Sequence record: PP400785 | DNA from: Escherichia phage FL08 | Length of the DNA stretch: 64,000 nt | Direction: 5' to 3' (one strand) | Shown here: positions 10,072 to 26,809 of the stretch, piece after piece | How the letters are laid out: every line of letters starts with the position of its first letter | Numbering within the stretch: the first letter of the stretch is position 1 | Notes under the pieces: generated by a model | What the model saw: only the letters and a program-made list of their open reading frames with translations | Told to the model about the DNA's origin: nothing | Databases searched by the model: none | Program-made: the position numbers and the translations under genes

Positions 10072-10590
10072 TTAATAACCTCGGTCTTGACGAGCGAAAT
10101 TTTCAGCATTTTTCAGATAATAAAGTTTAAAGATTTCTTCTGCTGTAAGACCAAGACCTTGAAACATGTTCAGAACAAAATGGAGAATATCAATCATTTC
10201 GAATTTGATTTCTAACTGGTCCTGTGGAGACAAATCAGTAATCAGAGTTTCACGACGTTCACCATGCTGAGCTTTCCACGGCTTCCATACAGCAGATGCA
10301 TCTTTTTCGCCATTGCTCATACCACCAAGAGAAGTCAGAAGTTCGCGGAATTCATCATCAATATAATCTTTCTGATTACGCAGCCAATCAACAACTTCAC
10401 CTGCAGTAGCCAAATCATCAGGATGACGGTTATATTCAGGTTTATCTTTAGCTAAACGAACTTGCAGAGATTTCTGCATATCAAGCATTACCTGCAGCGG
10501 GTCTTTTTCATCACCGAGAATATCCCAATATTCATTTTGAGCTTTATCAGCGCCTTCGATCAGTTGACTACATTCGTTGAAATGTGGCAT
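10072..10590 (-). CDS. 56: dCTPase / dCTP pyrophosphatase (gp56, MazG-like)
   Basis: 172 aa; position between soc and 61; all-alpha MazG-like composition; T4 gp56 about 171 aa. Confidence 0.8.
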   Translation of the reverse strand: MPHFNECSQLIEGADKAQNEYWDILGDEKDPLQVMLDMQKSLQVRLAKDKPEYNRHPDDLATAGEVVDWLRNQKDYIDDEFRELLTSLGGMSNGEKDASAVWKPWKAQHGERRETLITDLSPQDQLEIKFEMIDILHFVLNMFQGLGLTAEEIFKLYYLKNAENFARQDRGY

Positions 10591-10591
10591 G

Positions 10592-11242
10592 TTATTTTTC
10601 CTTTCTTATGAAGTTTTCTATCATATGTCTATAGCAGATATTAGGATAACCTGCCTTGACAGCTATTTTATTAAATTTTGTGCGCTTAGGTCTATTATTA
10701 TAAACCCATAATTCATAAAGCGCATCATAACTATTCCATATTTCTCCTCGCCTAGGATTTGGTAAACCATATCGAGGTGAATTTTTACCGCTAAATCTTC
10801 CTTTTCGGGCTTTACTCATATTAGCCTTGGCTTCATCGGATATAATTTTACCTTTATGAGCTAGACGCATTTTGGCTTTAGTTTCTTCTGGGGTCTTTTT
10901 GCCTTTAATCCATGACGGCTTGCCATATCTAGGATTATTTTCACCCGAGAAAAGAACAGAGTTTTGGATTTTAAGGGTTTCTATTAATCTACTTGTTAAT
11001 TTAACACCTTTATTATATCGCATTAAATTTACAGCATAATGCAATCCTCTCACATCTGGATATATTTTAGTTAATAATCTATGAGCTATAAAATGCTCAC
11101 GCGCAGTTAACTCAACAAGATTGTTTTTGTCATCTGCTCCTCCTATACATCTAGGAATTATATGATGGCGTTCTTTATATCCGCCAAGATGCCGGCATTT
11201 AGCTTTTGTAATTAAAGCCGAGTAAATTTTTTGGTAATTCAC
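10592..11242 (-). CDS. HNH homing endonuclease (Mob-like)
   Basis: N-terminal HHIIPRCIGG...NLV.LT..EH..AH HNH motif; C-terminal NUMOD-like repeats (NPRYGK, SPRYGL). Confidence 0.8.
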   Translation of the reverse strand: MNYQKIYSALITKAKCRHLGGYKERHHIIPRCIGGADDKNNLVELTAREHFIAHRLLTKIYPDVRGLHYAVNLMRYNKGVKLTSRLIETLKIQNSVLFSGENNPRYGKPSWIKGKKTPEETKAKMRLAHKGKIISDEAKANMSKARKGRFSGKNSPRYGLPNPRRGEIWNSYDALYELWVYNNRPKRTKFNKIAVKAGYPNICYRHMIENFIRKEK

Positions 11243-11313
11243 ATATATCCTTTCAATTCATGGGTTAGTAGATTAATTATACAATAAATATATAAAAGCA
11301 ATAAGGAGGACAT

Positions 11314-11514
11314 ATGGTACAAAAATTAATGGCACTTGTTGATGCCATAAAAGGTAATAAAAAACGTATAGCTTTTACTATTTCTGCTATGGTAGGAATT
11401 TTACTCTGGAACTTTATTTTATCACCCATTGCAATTGCACATGGTATTAATATTCCAGTAGTTACTCTTGATACATTCGTAGATTTAGCATTTGCTTTAG
11501 TTGGGTTAATTTAA
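11314..11514 (+). CDS. small hydrophobic (membrane) protein, 66 aa
   Basis: Plus-strand ORF preceded by consensus Shine-Dalgarno (AAGGAGG, 5-nt spacer); two predicted TM segments. Confidence 0.5.
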   Translation: MVQKLMALVDAIKGNKKRIAFTISAMVGILLWNFILSPIAIAHGINIPVVTLDTFVDLAFALVGLI

Positions 11515-12539
11515 ATCTTAGCATATTTAGATAACCGCATTTTAGCCATCAACCCCTGTGCAATATTATTTTTCATATATTCCATAATTTGTTCAGGGGT
11601 TGCACCTTCCTTTCTAATCATATCATTAACATCTTTTGATTTCCAGGGAGATTTATCCCAAAACATAACCCTTTCTCCTGCATCAACTAATTTAGTCATT
11701 CGCTTGATAGTGTCAGGGTGACGAGGTTCATTATCTAAAACCCATACTCGTCTATCTTTAAATGGAACAACTTCTAGGTCTAATTGACCACCCGTAATAG
11801 CTATACCATTTTCAATAAAAAGCGAATCTATAGGTCCTTCTAGAACATATACATCACCGTCTTTAACTCGTTCGACTCCATATATTTTTGTTGCCTCAGG
11901 ATAAGCTTTAATGGTGATATATTTTTGAGGAGCATCTTTCTTTAATGCACGTCCTTGAAAAGACTCAGCTTTTCCATTAGCATTATAAATTGGAATAACA
12001 AGACGAGGCTCAGGTATTTCCTTTTTATATGTTCCCGGTGCTATGCTATTAACTAATTTAGGCCATTCGGTTGTAAACCAAAGATATTTCCATTTATCCT
12101 TTGGAATACAACGAGCTTTTACATATTTTATAATTGGATGGTCTTCCGCCAGTTTATCTAATCTAACACATGACGGAAGAGATTTAATTATTTTCTTCTC
12201 AGGTTGTTTAGGAAGTTCTTTAGGTTTTTCTACTGGACGACTTTTACCTTTTTCTTTTCTTATTTCAAAAATATACTCACGATATAAATCGGGTTCAAAC
12301 TCCTTTAAATATATTCCGATTGGTGCATGATAGTTACAGTTATAACAATGAATATTTCCTTCATTATTATCGCCATAATACCATCCACGGGCTTTATTTT
12401 GGTCGGTTTTTGAATCTCCACAAACAGGGCATCTAAACCGCAATTTAAAAGTTGAACTATTATTTACTTGTGTGAATTTAGGTAAATGAGCTAATGCACG
12501 GTATGCAAACTCATTATCAATCCAAGGTATTGATGACAT
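11511..12539 (-). CDS. 61: DNA primase (gp61)
   Basis: 342 aa; N-terminal zinc ribbon CPVCGDS...CYNC; TOPRIM-like core; T4 gp61 size. Confidence 0.9.
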   Translation of the reverse strand: MSSIPWIDNEFAYRALAHLPKFTQVNNSSTFKLRFRCPVCGDSKTDQNKARGWYYGDNNEGNIHCYNCNYHAPIGIYLKEFEPDLYREYIFEIRKEKGKSRPVEKPKELPKQPEKKIIKSLPSCVRLDKLAEDHPIIKYVKARCIPKDKWKYLWFTTEWPKLVNSIAPGTYKKEIPEPRLVIPIYNANGKAESFQGRALKKDAPQKYITIKAYPEATKIYGVERVKDGDVYVLEGPIDSLFIENGIAITGGQLDLEVVPFKDRRVWVLDNEPRHPDTIKRMTKLVDAGERVMFWDKSPWKSKDVNDMIRKEGATPEQIMEYMKNNIAQGLMAKMRLSKYAKI

Positions 12540-16963: not shown

Positions 16964-17812
16964 TTAATCAACTGCTATCGGATGAATAGCATTAAACTTA
17001 TGAAATGCTTCTGATTTTTCTTTACGCGAAACACACATGCGAAGAACCTTTAATGGCTCGTCTTCTTCACCCAACGATTTTCGTTTTTCAATATTAGAAG
17101 TTTTCCAACGAGCTTGTTCTGGAAACTCTCTATTGATTTGCTCAAGCGCTCTATTATGTTTAGAATTACTACGAATTGAACTGCACCCGCCAGGAGCTTG
17201 TGCTTTTCCAGATACAACCAGATATTTGAACAAGGCCAAATGCGGATAACCTTGATTAATTAAATTGAGAAATGCATACATATCTTCGCATAAATCAATT
17301 TTTCCATACCCAATTTGTTCTGTCGTAAGTTTTCCGAGGTCATACCATGTATTCGTGAATCCATATGAATTTTCACGATAATTACCCCAAGATGAAGTAA
17401 TTTTAAAAATAGGTAGACGAGCATGACCATGATAATACCCGCAATCCATGGCATCCTCAACATATTGAATCAATTCATAGAACTGTTCACGAGTCAATTG
17501 ATTGACTTTATCTACACAACGACGATCATCTCTTTTTCGCATTGAACTCATACGAATAGTAGTATCATCGTCAATCATCCAGATTCGTTGACCTGCATAC
17601 ATATCAGTAATTGCTTTACGAGTACCGGCAATTCCATTTACATCATCAGGAATAGTTATAATTTTAGCTCTAGACCCATAGGCATCATAATAAGCTTTTT
17701 CTTCGTGTTCACGTACTACAATATGTGGTTCATAATCAGTCGGAAACATATCAAGGGCAGAAACTGCCCCTACACGTTGATAGCTTGGAATTACGAATTG
17801 AATCATTTCCAC
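16964..17812 (-). CDS. glycosyltransferase with DxD motif at the bgt locus (possible T2/T6-type beta-glucosyl-HMC-alpha-glucosyltransferase)
   Basis: 282 aa; WMIDDDT DxD motif; lies between uvsX and 42 where T4 has 351-aa bgt, but does not resemble T4 Bgt. Confidence 0.5.
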   Translation of the reverse strand: MEMIQFVIPSYQRVGAVSALDMFPTDYEPHIVVREHEEKAYYDAYGSRAKIITIPDDVNGIAGTRKAITDMYAGQRIWMIDDDTTIRMSSMRKRDDRRCVDKVNQLTREQFYELIQYVEDAMDCGYYHGHARLPIFKITSSWGNYRENSYGFTNTWYDLGKLTTEQIGYGKIDLCEDMYAFLNLINQGYPHLALFKYLVVSGKAQAPGGCSSIRSNSKHNRALEQINREFPEQARWKTSNIEKRKSLGEEDEPLKVLRMCVSRKEKSEAFHKFNAIHPIAVD

Positions 17813-18543
17813 TCACCGTTATAATCTTTTTTCACAATATGAGTTTCGCCAGTATTCCACCAATGATCAACCAAGTAAAAATGACGAGAATATACATGAA
17901 GACTTCCAACATTCCATATAATAGAACCTGCTTTATACTGACGAGTTGAATCGCCTGCATTCAAATCAGATACTAATTTATCTAATACGTATTTTTGCCA
18001 TGCATAATCATTACGGAATCCGAAGACCACGTCATTTGAGCGCATGCTTACTACTGCATTGACTTTCTTATCACGAATCAGGTACTGTACTGTATTCGTA
18101 CACATGAAATCTGACATACCATCTTTATTGTAGTCAAATTGCATGGATGGACGAGTATAAATCATGATACCACGTCGAGAATCAGGATTTTGACCAAGTT
18201 CAGCTAAACACATATCATACTGGGCATAGTTATCTTCTGACCAGATAGCCCAGCCATAATTCGAGTTAATTTCACCTTTAGAAGATGCTACTTGTTGCCA
18301 AATCTTCGGTGTTTCACCCGGAATATCTTTAACAAACAGACTTTGAGACTTGTACCATTCAAGTTCACGCTGAATGTATTCATCATTAAGAGCGCCAAAA
18401 ATAAACGGTTCATCTGCTACAAATGATGCGCCAATAATTTCAATAGTTTTAACGCCAGTTTTATCAACTACGAAATCTTTTTCTTTTAATGCAAGCCCCA
18501 AATGAAGACGGATTTCTTCAACTGTCATAGAGTCACTAATCAT
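17803..18543 (-). CDS. 42: dCMP hydroxymethylase (gp42)
   Basis: 246 aa (T4 gp42 size); thymidylate-synthase-like sequence. Confidence 0.9.
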   Translation of the reverse strand: MISDSMTVEEIRLHLGLALKEKDFVVDKTGVKTIEIIGASFVADEPFIFGALNDEYIQRELEWYKSQSLFVKDIPGETPKIWQQVASSKGEINSNYGWAIWSEDNYAQYDMCLAELGQNPDSRRGIMIYTRPSMQFDYNKDGMSDFMCTNTVQYLIRDKKVNAVVSMRSNDVVFGFRNDYAWQKYVLDKLVSDLNAGDSTRQYKAGSIIWNVGSLHVYSRHFYLVDHWWNTGETHIVKKDYNGEWK

Positions 18544-26041: not shown

Positions 26042-26092
26042 AATTCCTCCGTATAAATATGTTTATCACTCGCTGTATCAAAAGGATATGTT

Positions 26093-26809
26093 ATGAATTA
26101 TAAACTAATTTATGAAAAGTTAATCTCTAATGCTAAATCTCGAAAACTTGATTGCTATACTGAATCTCATCACATTATACCACGCTGTTTAAATGGCAGC
26201 GATGATGCTTCAAACTTAGTAGATTTAACACCAGAAGAGCACTATGTAGCTCATCAACTTTTAGTAAAAATTTATCCTTCTGAACCAAAATTAGTCTATG
26301 CTGCTAACATGATGACAGTTTCCACGAAATACGCTAAACGCAACAATAAAACTTTCGGTTGGATTCGTCGTAAACTCTGGGAAATAGAAAAGAATAAAGA
26401 ATTCTCCCAAGAGACACGAAAGAAAATGTCTGATGCAGTAGCTAATAAAGCAAGACTAACTTGTCCTCATTGCGGTAAGTCTGGATTAAGCGGGAATATG
26501 AATCGATGGCATTTTGATAACTGCCCGAATCACCCTAATCCTAAAGTTAGACCACCGATGTCTAAAGAACACAGAAATAATATCTCAAACGGGCTTAAAG
26601 CAATCATTCTTGAAGAAACATCCTGCGAATTCTGCGGAATGATAGGCAAGAAATGCGTTATCGCAGCGCATAGAAATTTCTGCAAGAAAAATCCAAATGG
26701 ACGCAAGAAAACTGAAAAGACTGGTACTTGCGTCCATTGTGGTAAAGTTACCACTTTCGGAAATTTATCAAGGTGGCATAATGATAACTGTAAATATAAA
26801 CCTAGCTAA
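26093..26809 (+). CDS. HNH homing endonuclease (Mob-like) with C-terminal Cys-rich zinc-finger repeats
   Basis: Plus strand; N-terminal ESHHIIPRCLNGSDD...NLV.LT.EEH..AH HNH motif shared with the two minus-strand HNH genes; CPHCG / CEFCG / CVHCG repeats. Confidence 0.8.
   Translation: MNYKLIYEKLISNAKSRKLDCYTESHHIIPRCLNGSDDASNLVDLTPEEHYVAHQLLVKIYPSEPKLVYAANMMTVSTKYAKRNNKTFGWIRRKLWEIEKNKEFSQETRKKMSDAVANKARLTCPHCGKSGLSGNMNRWHFDNCPNHPNPKVRPPMSKEHRNNISNGLKAIILEETSCEFCGMIGKKCVIAAHRNFCKKNPNGRKKTEKTGTCVHCGKVTTFGNLSRWHNDNCKYKPS

What the first reader, a model, noticed from the sequence alone, without database searches (positions are those of the whole stretch)
11314..11514. Plus-strand small membrane protein gene with a consensus Shine-Dalgarno
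A 66-codon plus-strand ORF is preceded by AAGGAGG 5 nt before the ATG and encodes two predicted TM helices. It runs convergently into the stop of primase gene 61 and lies directly beside the start of the HNH gene at 10592..11242.
Basis: seen in the sequence. Interest (0 to 1): 0.4.

Follow-up and report, generated by a model that had tools for sequence, protein, structure and literature searches.

The report
Conserved late small membrane protein gene
This is a real, conserved 66-codon gene of T4-type phages that encodes a small inner-membrane protein, probably switched on late in infection; databases already list it as "hypothetical", the reference T4 annotation omits it, and it has no link to the neighbouring HNH endonuclease gene.

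Summary
ATG 11314 to TAA 11514 (+) is a 66-codon ORF. AAGGAGG (11303-11309) lies 4 nt upstream, and the stop shares TTAA with the convergent stop of primase gene 61.

It is a genuine gene. It matches PHROG 2024 over its full length (E 4e-31). It occurs in 692 phage records and is near full length in 685. dN/dS is mostly 0.1-0.45. It keeps its position (plus strand, abutting gene 61) in at least five T-even lineages.

It is the orthologue of RB69ORF029w/RB32ORF030w. It is present but unannotated in reference T4 (17738-17938).

It is not tied to the HNH gene. Only 29 records share that layout; T4 has dam there, and RB69 and RB51 have nothing.

One transmembrane helix (about residues 19-41) is secure. 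The "second" is a short acidic amphipathic C-terminal helix. Flank charges predict N-in/C-out.

A late-promoter box (AATAAATA, 11283-11290) sits 23 nt before the ATG, and its ATAAATA core recurs in nearly all T4-like lineages. Early and middle T4 transcription runs on the other strand, so late, gp55-dependent expression is the best inference.

Function is unknown. An envelope or lysis-phase role is a low-confidence guess. The gene is catalogued but uncharacterised; interest is modest.

The parts
11314..11514 (+). Coding sequence of the 66-aa small membrane protein (orthologue of RB69ORF029w / RB32ORF030w; PHROG 2024).
   Evidence: ORF confirmed. PHROG 2024 match over residues 2-66 against profile 1-65/65, E 3.9e-31. 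tblastn finds 692 phage records, 685 covering at least 80%. dN/dS is mostly 0.1-0.45 and codon position 2 varies least. An identical protein is already in NCBI as 'hypothetical protein'.
11303..11309 (+). Shine-Dalgarno sequence AAGGAGG, 4 nt before the ATG.
   Evidence: Read from the sequence. The pattern is unique in the window against 0.07 expected. AAGGAGG, AGGAGG or AAGGAG starts at about -11 (T4 -13) in every T4-like lineage examined.
11283..11290 (+). Putative gp55-dependent late promoter box AATAAATA (TATAAATA with A at -13), followed by AT-rich sequence. The inferred transcription start is roughly 11296-11298.
   Evidence: The ATAAATA core begins 23-30 nt before the ATG in Tequatrovirus (both upstream-sequence types), Gaprivervirus, Mosigvirus, subfamily-B phages, a CkP1-like contig and a metagenomic contig, while the flanking sequence has diverged. 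There are only 10 ATAAATA sites in the 64-kb window on both strands, and 8 precede an SD+ATG, including lysozyme e, soc and gene 49. [quoted passage not shown] No 5' end has been mapped.
11276..11301 (-). Putative MotA-type middle promoter for the minus-strand HNH/56 unit (TTGCTTTTA box 11301-11293, 11-nt spacer, TATAAT 11281-11276). It overlaps the plus-strand leader and late box.
   Evidence: Read from the sequence. The fPS-2 record annotates a 'predicted middle promoter' at the equivalent place. Nolan et al. predict Pm:16038(-) at the equivalent place in RB69. The MotA-box consensus is from my own knowledge of T4 middle promoters.
11319..11348 (-). Terminator-like hairpin (ATGGCATCAACAAGTGCCAT) plus T-run on the minus strand, about 165 nt past the gene 61 stop. 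It lies inside codons 2-12 of the ORF.
   Evidence: Consensus scan. fPS-2 annotates a terminator there. No equivalent is found in Mosigvirus or subfamily-B loci; the one site found in Gaprivervirus lies elsewhere, in the second paralogue. It therefore does not explain the cross-genus conservation.
11511..12539 (-). Primase gene 61, the constant convergent partner. Its stop codon overlaps the ORF's stop (TTAA, 11511-11514).
   Evidence: The same junction is seen in T4, RB69, RB51 and VR25, with a short gap in SEA1 and the CkP1-like contig.
10592..11242 (-). HNH/NUMOD3 homing-endonuclease gene. It is a neighbour only: a variable insertion between gene 56 and the ORF, not part of the unit.
   Evidence: Pfam NUMOD3 and HNH, PHROG 655 homing endonuclease. 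This layout is present in only 29 records. T4 has dam at this place, and RB69 and RB51 have nothing.

Best explanation
The ORF is a genuine, vertically inherited backbone gene of T-even-type phages (Tevenvirinae). It is not cargo of the HNH element.

Proposed mechanism, with each step marked as shown or inferred:

1. Inferred from sequence and established T4 biology. Once replication is under way, RNA polymerase carrying gp55, gp33 and the gp45 clamp starts at the AATAAATA box (11283-11290). This is the only promoter class that reads this strand inside the early-gene block.
2. Shown in sequence. The short leader carries a consensus AAGGAGG 4 nt before the ATG, and a 66-residue protein is encoded.
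3. Inferred from hydropathy, flank charges and the AlphaFold2 model. The protein inserts into the inner membrane as a single-pass protein, N-in/C-out. It has a basic amphipathic N-terminus (net +4) in the cytoplasm and a transmembrane helix at about residues 19-41. The helix carries the near-invariant W32-N33...P38 towards the outer leaflet. A loop G44-x3-P48 and a short acidic amphipathic helix (52-63) lie at the periplasmic face.
4. Inferred. This conserved periplasm-proximal motif is the working part and binds a membrane or periplasmic partner.
5. Guess, about 25%. The partner belongs to late envelope events, such as lysis timing (holin T or the antiholins). A self-sufficient holin is unlikely.
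6. Inferred. No plus-strand terminator follows, so the late transcript should run on antisense into gene 61. This could be a side effect or could help silence primase mRNA late in infection.
For: Real gene:
- PHROG 2024 full-length match, E 3.9e-31.
- 692 phage records by tblastn, 685 covering at least 80%.
- Profile searches recover the family across several T-even genera and two subfamilies.
- dN/dS is 0.1-0.45 in most comparisons (0.60 and 0.68 in two close, low-information pairs). Substitutions by codon position are, for example, [31, 12, 40].

Backbone gene, not HNH cargo:
- The order 56 | (nothing, dam or HNH) | ORF(+) >< 61(-) holds in T4, RB51, RB69, phage 55, VR25, SEA1 and a CkP1-like contig.
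- The HNH layout occurs in only 29 records.

Late promoter:
- The ATAAATA core begins 23-30 nt before the ATG in nearly all T4-like lineages, although the flanks differ.
- The motif is rare: 10 sites in 128 kb of strand. Eight of the ten precede SD+ATG genes, including e, soc and 49.
- The A(-13) variant accounts for 9 of 50 T4 late promoters, and early and middle transcripts all have the opposite polarity (PMC2988020).
- T at -13 is poorly conserved in relatives of T4 (PMC1524935).
- Plus-strand sigma70-like sites are no more frequent than in shuffled sequence.

Membrane topology:
- Hydropathy.
- AlphaFold2 helices at 2-11, 15-42 and 52-63, mean pLDDT 78.
- The N-flank carries +1 to +5 and the post-TM tail -1 to -2 in all six family members tested, from both subfamilies and the prophage branch.
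- One predicted transmembrane segment, 21-41, in RB69ORF029w.

Antisense run-on:
- No plus-strand terminator-like site in the 2.5 kb downstream.
Against: - No transcript 5' end, ribosome footprint or peptide has been seen. I found no paper that mentions the ORF beyond a supplementary table.
- Nolan et al.'s late-promoter model did not call a site upstream of RB69ORF029w, and they state that late promoters were found only before orthologues of T4 late genes.
- T4 itself has G and Gaprivervirus has C at -13, which are rarer deviations.
- The S16/SEA1-like orthologue has TTAAATA rather than ATAAATA.
- The late box overlaps a minus-strand middle promoter, which could contribute to its conservation. 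Against this, its position relative to that promoter differs between the window and RB69.
- The functional guess rests only on topology, timing and sub-threshold holin-profile hits.
- Searches of PDB and BFVD by fold and by sequence, and of NCBIfam and PADLOC, gave nothing usable.
Confidence: 0.72

Rival explanations
1. It is a true holin or pinholin-like pore former: the protein itself permeabilises the inner membrane late in infection.
For: It is a small, probably late-expressed membrane protein. Three of 25 family members give weak hits to Pfam PF11351 GTA_holin_3TM, always to the same C-terminal part of the model (E 0.03-0.1). Two members give weak hits to a holin PHROG, phrog_11161 (E 0.012 and 0.065). 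One UniRef entry is labelled 'Holin'.
Against: All holin hits are below threshold (13.6-15.3 bits against a 24.8 cut-off), and the window protein has none. There is no charged hydrophilic C-terminal tail: the protein ends ...ALVGLI with a net -2 tail. It is not next to an endolysin; lysozyme e lies about 47 kb away. From my own knowledge, T-even phages already have holin T, antiholins RI and RIII, and spanins. The 'Holin' label is a single name among hundreds of 'hypothetical protein' entries and comes with no stated evidence.
Confidence: 0.1
2. The main function lies at the RNA level. The late promoter exists to send antisense transcription into primase gene 61 (and beyond) to shut off early replication genes, and the ORF is secondary.
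For: The gene always converges on gene 61, usually with overlapping stops. No plus-strand terminator is found for 2.5 kb downstream. T4 is known to transcribe both strands at several sites at different times (PMC2988020).
Against: Amino-acid-level purifying selection, invariant W, N, P, G and P residues, and retention of the ORF at about 20-50% identity across subfamilies all show that the protein itself is under selection. An antisense promoter alone would not need an SD or a 66-codon frame. The two roles are not mutually exclusive.
Confidence: 0.08
3. It is a superinfection-exclusion or immunity-type membrane protein, in the manner of T4 Imm or of prophage morons, which protects the infected cell or lysogen against other phages.
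For: A diverged homologue (P0142 group, 67-70 aa) sits at the very end of an E. coli prophage next to host alkA, a typical moron position. The proteins are small and single-pass.
Against: From my own knowledge, T4 exclusion proteins Imm and Sp are made early, whereas this gene appears to be late. There are no PADLOC or other defence-family hits. The prophage homologue is distant, and its expression is unknown.
Confidence: 0.07
4. It is cargo of, or functionally coupled to, the adjacent HNH homing endonuclease. This is the link the first reader implied.
For: The two genes are divergent neighbours 71 nt apart in this window and share one intergenic control region.
Against: The ORF is present in 692 records, but the HNH+ORF layout occurs in only 29. 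T4, RB69, RB51, VR25, SEA1 and CkP1-like phages have the ORF without this HNH gene. Related HNH genes occur elsewhere in other phages without the ORF (hits H30-H40).
Confidence: 0.02
5. It is not a gene: a chance ORF in the 3' untranslated and terminator region of gene 61.
For: The region does carry a minus-strand terminator-like hairpin and promoter elements. The reference T4 annotation has no gene there. Spurious ORFs of this size are common in this AT-rich genome.
Against: dN/dS is well below 1. The frame is kept intact at about 50% amino-acid identity across genera in which the hairpin is absent. The SD is conserved. The alternative minus-strand ORF at 11277-11429 has no family match.
Confidence: 0.01

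Closest known systems
RB69ORF029w / RB32ORF030w family (PHROG 2024, 'unknown function')
   Same: Orthologous. The profile match is full length, and the position and orientation are the same (plus strand, between 56 and 61, stop abutting gene 61). The W-N...P...G...P motif is shared. One transmembrane segment is predicted.
   Different: Nothing essential differs. The window copy is 52-55% identical to Mosigvirus members and has an HNH gene inserted upstream. The family has no assigned function, and reference T4 lacks the annotation.
T4 late genes embedded among early genes with their own late promoter (soc, e, 49)
   Same: A late-promoter box lies 13-36 nt before an SD+ATG, followed by AT-rich sequence. 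The geometry matches the boxes upstream of soc (10040), e (58837 and 58850) and 49 (39574) in this same window.
   Different: Those genes lie on the minus strand here, and their late promoters are documented in the T4 literature. This ORF lies on the plus strand, has A rather than T at -13, and has no mapped transcript.
Phage holins, including Pfam PF11351 GTA_holin_3TM
   Same: Small phage membrane proteins, probably expressed late. A few distant family members give weak, position-consistent profile hits.
   Different: This protein has one transmembrane helix, not three. It has no charged C-terminal tail and is not beside an endolysin. The hits are sub-threshold, and the window protein has none.
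T4 small inner-membrane proteins Imm and Ac, and the antiholin RI (from my own knowledge)
   Same: Short T-even membrane-anchored proteins that act at the envelope. RI likewise exposes its functional part to the periplasm.
   Different: No sequence similarity was detected in any search. Imm is an early gene. RI has a roughly 70-residue periplasmic domain, against about 24 residues here.
Type I toxin-antitoxin small hydrophobic toxins (Hok, Ldr, TisB)
   Same: A short hydrophobic peptide whose mRNA is complementary to a convergent transcript. In Tequatrovirus the 3' UTR of gene 61 runs antisense through the whole ORF.
   Different: Only one of 25 members gives a noise-level Ldr hit (E 0.1). The antisense terminator is not conserved outside Tequatrovirus. 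This is a lytic-phage backbone gene, not an addiction module.

Membership tests
PHROG 2024 / RB69ORF029w family | Significant full-length match to the family profile | tested here: met
   E 3.9e-31, residues 2-66 against profile 1-65/65. Distant members also hit PHROG 2024 best.
PHROG 2024 / RB69ORF029w family | Syntenic position: a lone opposite-strand gene between 56 and 61, converging on gene 61 | tested here: met
   Window; T4, RB51, RB69, phage 55, VR25, SEA1 and a CkP1-like contig.
PHROG 2024 / RB69ORF029w family | Conserved motif W-N-x4-P-x5-G-x3-P plus an acidic residue about 5 positions later | tested here: met
   W32, N33, P38, G44 and P48 are invariant or at least 90% conserved in alignments A2 and A3.
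T4 late (gp55-dependent) transcription unit | TATAAATA-type box at about -13 to -6, followed by AT-rich sequence and with no -35 element | tested here: met
   AATAAATA at 11283-11290, then TATAAAAGCAAT. It is the A(-13) variant class. The ATAAATA core is conserved in nearly all T4-like lineages.
T4 late (gp55-dependent) transcription unit | Polarity incompatible with early or middle transcription | tested here: met
   The ORF is on the strand opposite to 56, 61, 61.1 and 41. All early and middle T4 transcripts share one polarity (PMC2988020).
T4 late (gp55-dependent) transcription unit | An in vivo 5' end at the box that depends on gp55, gp33, gp45 and replication | not testable with these tools
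   No transcript data are available here. A stranded T4 RNA-seq data set exists (GSE111808, PMC6024815) but could not be accessed. Nolan et al.'s model did not call a late promoter here in RB69.
Holins (canonical) | At least one transmembrane domain in a small phage protein | tested here: met
   Transmembrane helix at about 19-41.
Holins (canonical) | Highly charged hydrophilic C-terminal tail | tested here: not met
   The C-terminus is ...DLAFALVGLI. The post-TM segment has net charge -2 and no basic residues.
Holins (canonical) | Location in a lysis cassette beside an endolysin | tested here: not met
   The neighbours are HNH, 56 and primase 61. Lysozyme e lies at about 58.3-58.8 kb.
Holins (canonical) | Significant match to a holin profile (for example PF11351) | tested here: not met
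   The window protein has no Pfam hit at E<=1. Three of 25 relatives hit PF11351 at 13.6-15.3 bits against a 24.8 cut-off.
Holins (canonical) | Membrane permeabilisation or lethality on expression, with endolysin release | not testable with these tools
   This needs an experiment.
Homing-endonuclease-associated cargo | Co-occurrence and co-mobility with the HNH gene | tested here: not met
   29 records share the HNH+ORF layout, against 692 with the ORF. The ORF is present without the HNH gene in T4, RB69, RB51, VR25 and SEA1.
Type I toxin-antitoxin toxins | A conserved cis-antisense RNA partner and a profile match to a known toxin family | tested here: not met
   The antisense terminator and 3' UTR arrangement is seen only in Tequatrovirus. 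The Ldr_toxin hit is E 0.1 in one of 25 members. There is no Rfam hit.

The most novel reading that the evidence does not exclude
T4 and its relatives carry an overlooked late gene, missing from the reference T4 annotation. Its single-pass membrane product would be a new player in late envelope events, for example a further regulator of holin T timing or lysis inhibition. Its unterminated late transcript would also act as an antisense silencer of primase gene 61.
Probability: 0.15. Interest if true: 0.6.

Novelty: already known. Interest (0 to 1): 0.3.

Why it matters
T4 is one of the most thoroughly annotated genomes, yet its reference records (NC_000866, AF158101) leave 17626-17934 empty. 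A gene that is intact in nearly all 692 records carrying it sits there. Expression studies that count reads or peptides against the reference gene list will miss it.

If late expression and membrane location are confirmed, it adds one more uncharacterised membrane protein to the late programme of T-even phages. It also adds one more case of late antisense transcription across an early replication gene.

For this window specifically, the result corrects a tempting but wrong association with the HNH homing endonuclease.

Tried and rejected
- Pfam, NCBIfam and PADLOC scans of the protein and of 25 relatives gave no significant family.
- An AlphaFold2 model was searched by Foldseek against BFVD and PDB, and a sequence profile was searched against PDB. 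These returned only the protein's own family, or generic transmembrane helices such as nAChR TM4. The afdb50 library was unavailable.
- Rfam and RNA folding of both strands found no RNA family and no unusual stability (z-scores -0.8 and -0.4).
- The sigma70 promoter scan found plus-strand sites no more often than in shuffles.
They covered Ribo-seq, transcriptome, antisense and proteogenomic work and the ORF names. No paper discusses this ORF beyond Nolan et al.'s supplementary table of predicted transmembrane segments. Miller et al. 2003 (PMC150520) is not held.
- The context of the E. coli prophage homologue was examined for a lysis cassette. A lone lysozyme gene lies about 1.5 kb away on the other strand, which is not decisive. 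That homologue has no match in the phage collection.
- The PF11351 lead could not be tested by profile-profile comparison because no PF11351 sequences were at hand.

Full report
**What is in the sequence**

The window is a Tequatrovirus (T4-type) genome segment. Around the finding, the minus strand carries dCTPase gene 56 (10072-10590), an HNH/NUMOD3 homing-endonuclease gene (10592-11242) and primase gene 61 (11511-12539).

On the plus strand, ATG 11314 opens a 66-codon frame that ends at TAA 11512-11514. AAGGAGG lies at 11303-11309 with a 4-nt spacer. The pattern AAGGAGG-N4-ATG occurs once in the 64-kb window, against 0.07 expected.

The two convergent stop codons share the palindrome TTAA at 11511-11514. 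The only slips are the spacer length (4 nt, not 5) and the number of transmembrane helices.

**Is it a gene?**

Length alone proves nothing here, because there are 46 ORFs of at least 30 aa in 5 kb. Comparative evidence settles the question.

- The protein matches PHROG 2024 ('unknown function') end to end, E 3.9e-31.
- tblastn finds it in 692 phage records, 685 at near full length. These include T4, T2, RB51 and many Escherichia, Shigella, Yersinia, Salmonella and Citrobacter phages.
- Profile searches extend the family to Mosigvirus, Gaprivervirus, S16/SEA1-like and CkP1-like phages. They also find a second subfamily in Klebsiella and Enterobacter T4-like phages.
- The library clustered at 50% identity holds only 16 clusters, so the family is narrow.
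- Nei-Gojobori comparisons give dN/dS of 0.1-0.45 for most pairs; two close pairs with few substitutions give 0.60 and 0.68. The second codon position varies least, for example [31, 12, 40].
- Many first-position changes are I/L/V swaps, as expected for a membrane helix.
- The frame, the SD and the residues W32, N33, P38, G44 and P48 persist at about 20-50% identity.
- The alternative minus-strand ORF (11277-11429) has no family match.

**Already catalogued, but missing from T4**

The gene was named RB69ORF029w in RB69 and RB32ORF030w in RB51. Nolan et al. 2006 list it in a supplementary table with one predicted transmembrane segment at 21-41.

Hundreds of GenBank records call it 'hypothetical protein'. 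An identical protein is in NCBI.

The reference T4 records leave 17626-17934, between dam and 61, unannotated, although the ORF is there at 17738-17938. The exact T4 sequence appears in the protein collection only from raw assemblies. A recent machine-annotated T4 record does call it.

**No link to the HNH gene**

The constant neighbour is gene 61, not the endonuclease. Upstream of the ORF:

- T4 has dam.
- RB69, RB51 and phage 55 have gene 56 directly.
- VR25 has 56 and a tandem second copy of the ORF.
- SEA1 and a CkP1-like contig show the same 56 | ORF | 61 order.

Only 29 records reproduce the window's 56-HNH-ORF-61 layout. The HNH gene is the variable insertion.

**When is it expressed?**

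An AATAAATA box lies at 11283-11290, 23 nt before the ATG. It is the T4 late-promoter consensus TATAAATA with A at -13, and AT-rich sequence follows it.

The ATAAATA core begins 23-30 nt before the ATG in both Tequatrovirus upstream-sequence types, and in Gaprivervirus, Mosigvirus, subfamily-B phages, a CkP1-like contig and a metagenomic contig. The surrounding bases have diverged. SEA1 has TTAAATA, and a more distant relative has CTAAATA.

The motif is rare in this window:

- There are 10 ATAAATA sites on both strands.
- TATAAATA occurs 6 times, against 11.3 in shuffles.
- Eight of the ten sites lie 13-36 nt before an SD+ATG.
- These eight include lysozyme e (two boxes), soc and gene 49. I identified these three from their N-terminal sequences and my own knowledge of T4.

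Geiduschek and Kassavetis report that A(-13) is the commonest variant, at 9 of 50 T4 sites. They also report that all early and middle transcripts share one polarity, while late transcripts can have either (PMC2988020). The ORF lies on the strand opposite to 56, 61 and 41, and plus-strand sigma70-like sites are no more frequent than chance. Late, gp55-dependent transcription is therefore the best-supported reading.

Caveats:

- No 5' end has been mapped.
- Nolan et al.'s model did not call a late promoter upstream of RB69ORF029w.
- T4 has G and Gaprivervirus has C at -13.
- The box overlaps a minus-strand middle promoter. In the window this reads TTGCTTTTA, 11 nt, TATAAT. It is annotated in fPS-2 and predicted as Pm:16038 in RB69.
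- However, in the window the box sits in that promoter's spacer, while in RB69 it sits upstream of the MotA box. Its distance to the ORF start is kept in both. This argues that it serves the ORF.

**The other strand**

In Tequatrovirus a terminator-like hairpin with a T-run (11348-11319, minus strand) lies inside codons 2-12. The 3' UTR of gene 61 is therefore antisense to the whole ORF.

No equivalent hairpin was found in Mosigvirus or subfamily-B loci. The single site found in Gaprivervirus lies elsewhere, inside the second paralogue. The hairpin therefore does not explain the conservation across genera.

No plus-strand terminator-like site follows the ORF for 2.5 kb. A late transcript would run antisense into gene 61.

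No Rfam family or unusual folding stability was found on either strand.

**The protein**

Residues 19-41 are strongly hydrophobic. Residues 47-66 are marginal, carry D53 and D57, and are not hydrophobic in subfamily B.

AlphaFold2, run with a 17-sequence alignment, gives mean pLDDT 78 and helices at 2-11, 15-42 and 52-63. The N-flank carries +1 to +5 and the post-TM tail -1 to -2 in all six members tested, drawn from both subfamilies and the prophage branch.

This predicts a single-pass N-in/C-out protein. Its conserved W-N...P...G-x3-P...(D/E) motif would face the outer leaflet and the periplasm.

**Function**

No significant match was found in Pfam, NCBIfam, PADLOC, PDB or BFVD.

The only lead is sub-threshold. 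Three of 25 relatives hit the C-terminal part of PF11351 GTA_holin_3TM (E 0.03-0.1), and two hit a holin PHROG. One UniRef entry is named 'Holin'.

Tested against the defining features of holins, the protein fails on three counts: the charged C-terminal tail, a position beside an endolysin, and a significant profile match. I therefore do not file it as a holin.

A diverged homologue lies at the end of an E. coli prophage beside alkA, about 1.5 kb from a lone lysozyme gene. This fits either an envelope-related or a moron-type role.

My committed reading is a late-made inner-membrane protein that binds a partner at the periplasmic face. It most plausibly acts in lysis-phase or envelope events, and I put that specific role at about 25%.

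**Verdict**

This is a real, conserved small membrane protein gene that is probably late-expressed. It is already in the databases as a hypothetical protein, it is independent of the HNH element, and it is unannotated in reference T4. Interest is modest.

Noticed in passing
window 10588-11313: The HNH/NUMOD3 endonuclease gene (10592-11242, minus strand) is wedged tightly between gene 56 and gene 56's usual upstream region. Its stop codon is 1 nt from the ATG of gene 56, and its last codons carry that gene's SD. Its own start is preceded by the 'cctttcaattca' leader that directly precedes gene 56 in RB69 and in locus L008. T4 has dam at this place instead.
   Followed up: partly
L004 1995-2401 (VR25); L014 2495-2899; L005 1995-2310 (TH40): Gapriverviruses carry two tandem paralogues of the small gene, one of each subfamily. 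The second lies 8 nt downstream with its own GGTGG SD and no promoter box of its own. That second copy is frameshifted in L014 and deleted in TH40. Other genera keep only one subfamily.
   Followed up: partly
L019-L022 8001-8213 (E. coli contigs): A diverged homologue (P0142 and relatives, 67-70 aa) is the last gene of an E. coli prophage, directly beside host alkA. A lone Phage_lysozyme gene, a GIY-YIG fragment and unknown ORFs of 196 and 106 aa lie nearby. It has no ATAAATA box and no match in the phage collection.
   Followed up: partly
window 26052-26809 (+): A second HNH-type endonuclease ORF (238 aa, N-terminus MNYKLIYEKLISNAK, similar to that of the HNH gene at 10592-11242) lies on the plus strand. 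A perfect TATAAATA sits about 33 nt before its ATG, so this homing endonuclease appears to be under a late promoter.
   Followed up: no
whole window: The late-promoter core is depleted. TATAAATA occurs 6 times against 11.3 expected from shuffles, and ATAAATA only 10 times on both strands. Eight of those ten sites lie 13-36 nt before an SD+ATG.
   Followed up: partly
window 11319-11348 (-): One stretch of DNA has two uses. The terminator-like hairpin and T-run that follow gene 61 on the minus strand also encode residues 2-12 of the plus-strand protein. This arrangement was seen only in Tequatrovirus.
   Followed up: partly
proteins P0100, P0115, P0138, P0025: Public names for some family members look wrong. 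They include 'DNA packaging ATPase' (Klebsiella phage SAKp28, Yersinia phage vB_YenM_P8), 'dCTP pyrophosphatase' (UniRef entry for Salmonella phage SEA1) and 'Holin' (UniRef entry for vB_EcoM_OE5505). All other members are named 'hypothetical'.
   Followed up: no
L028 129-308: A distant family member (P0118, 59 aa) on a metagenomic contig lies directly upstream of a 352-aa RelA_SpoT-domain gene on the same strand. CTAAATA (the Aeh1-type late box) precedes it.
   Followed up: no
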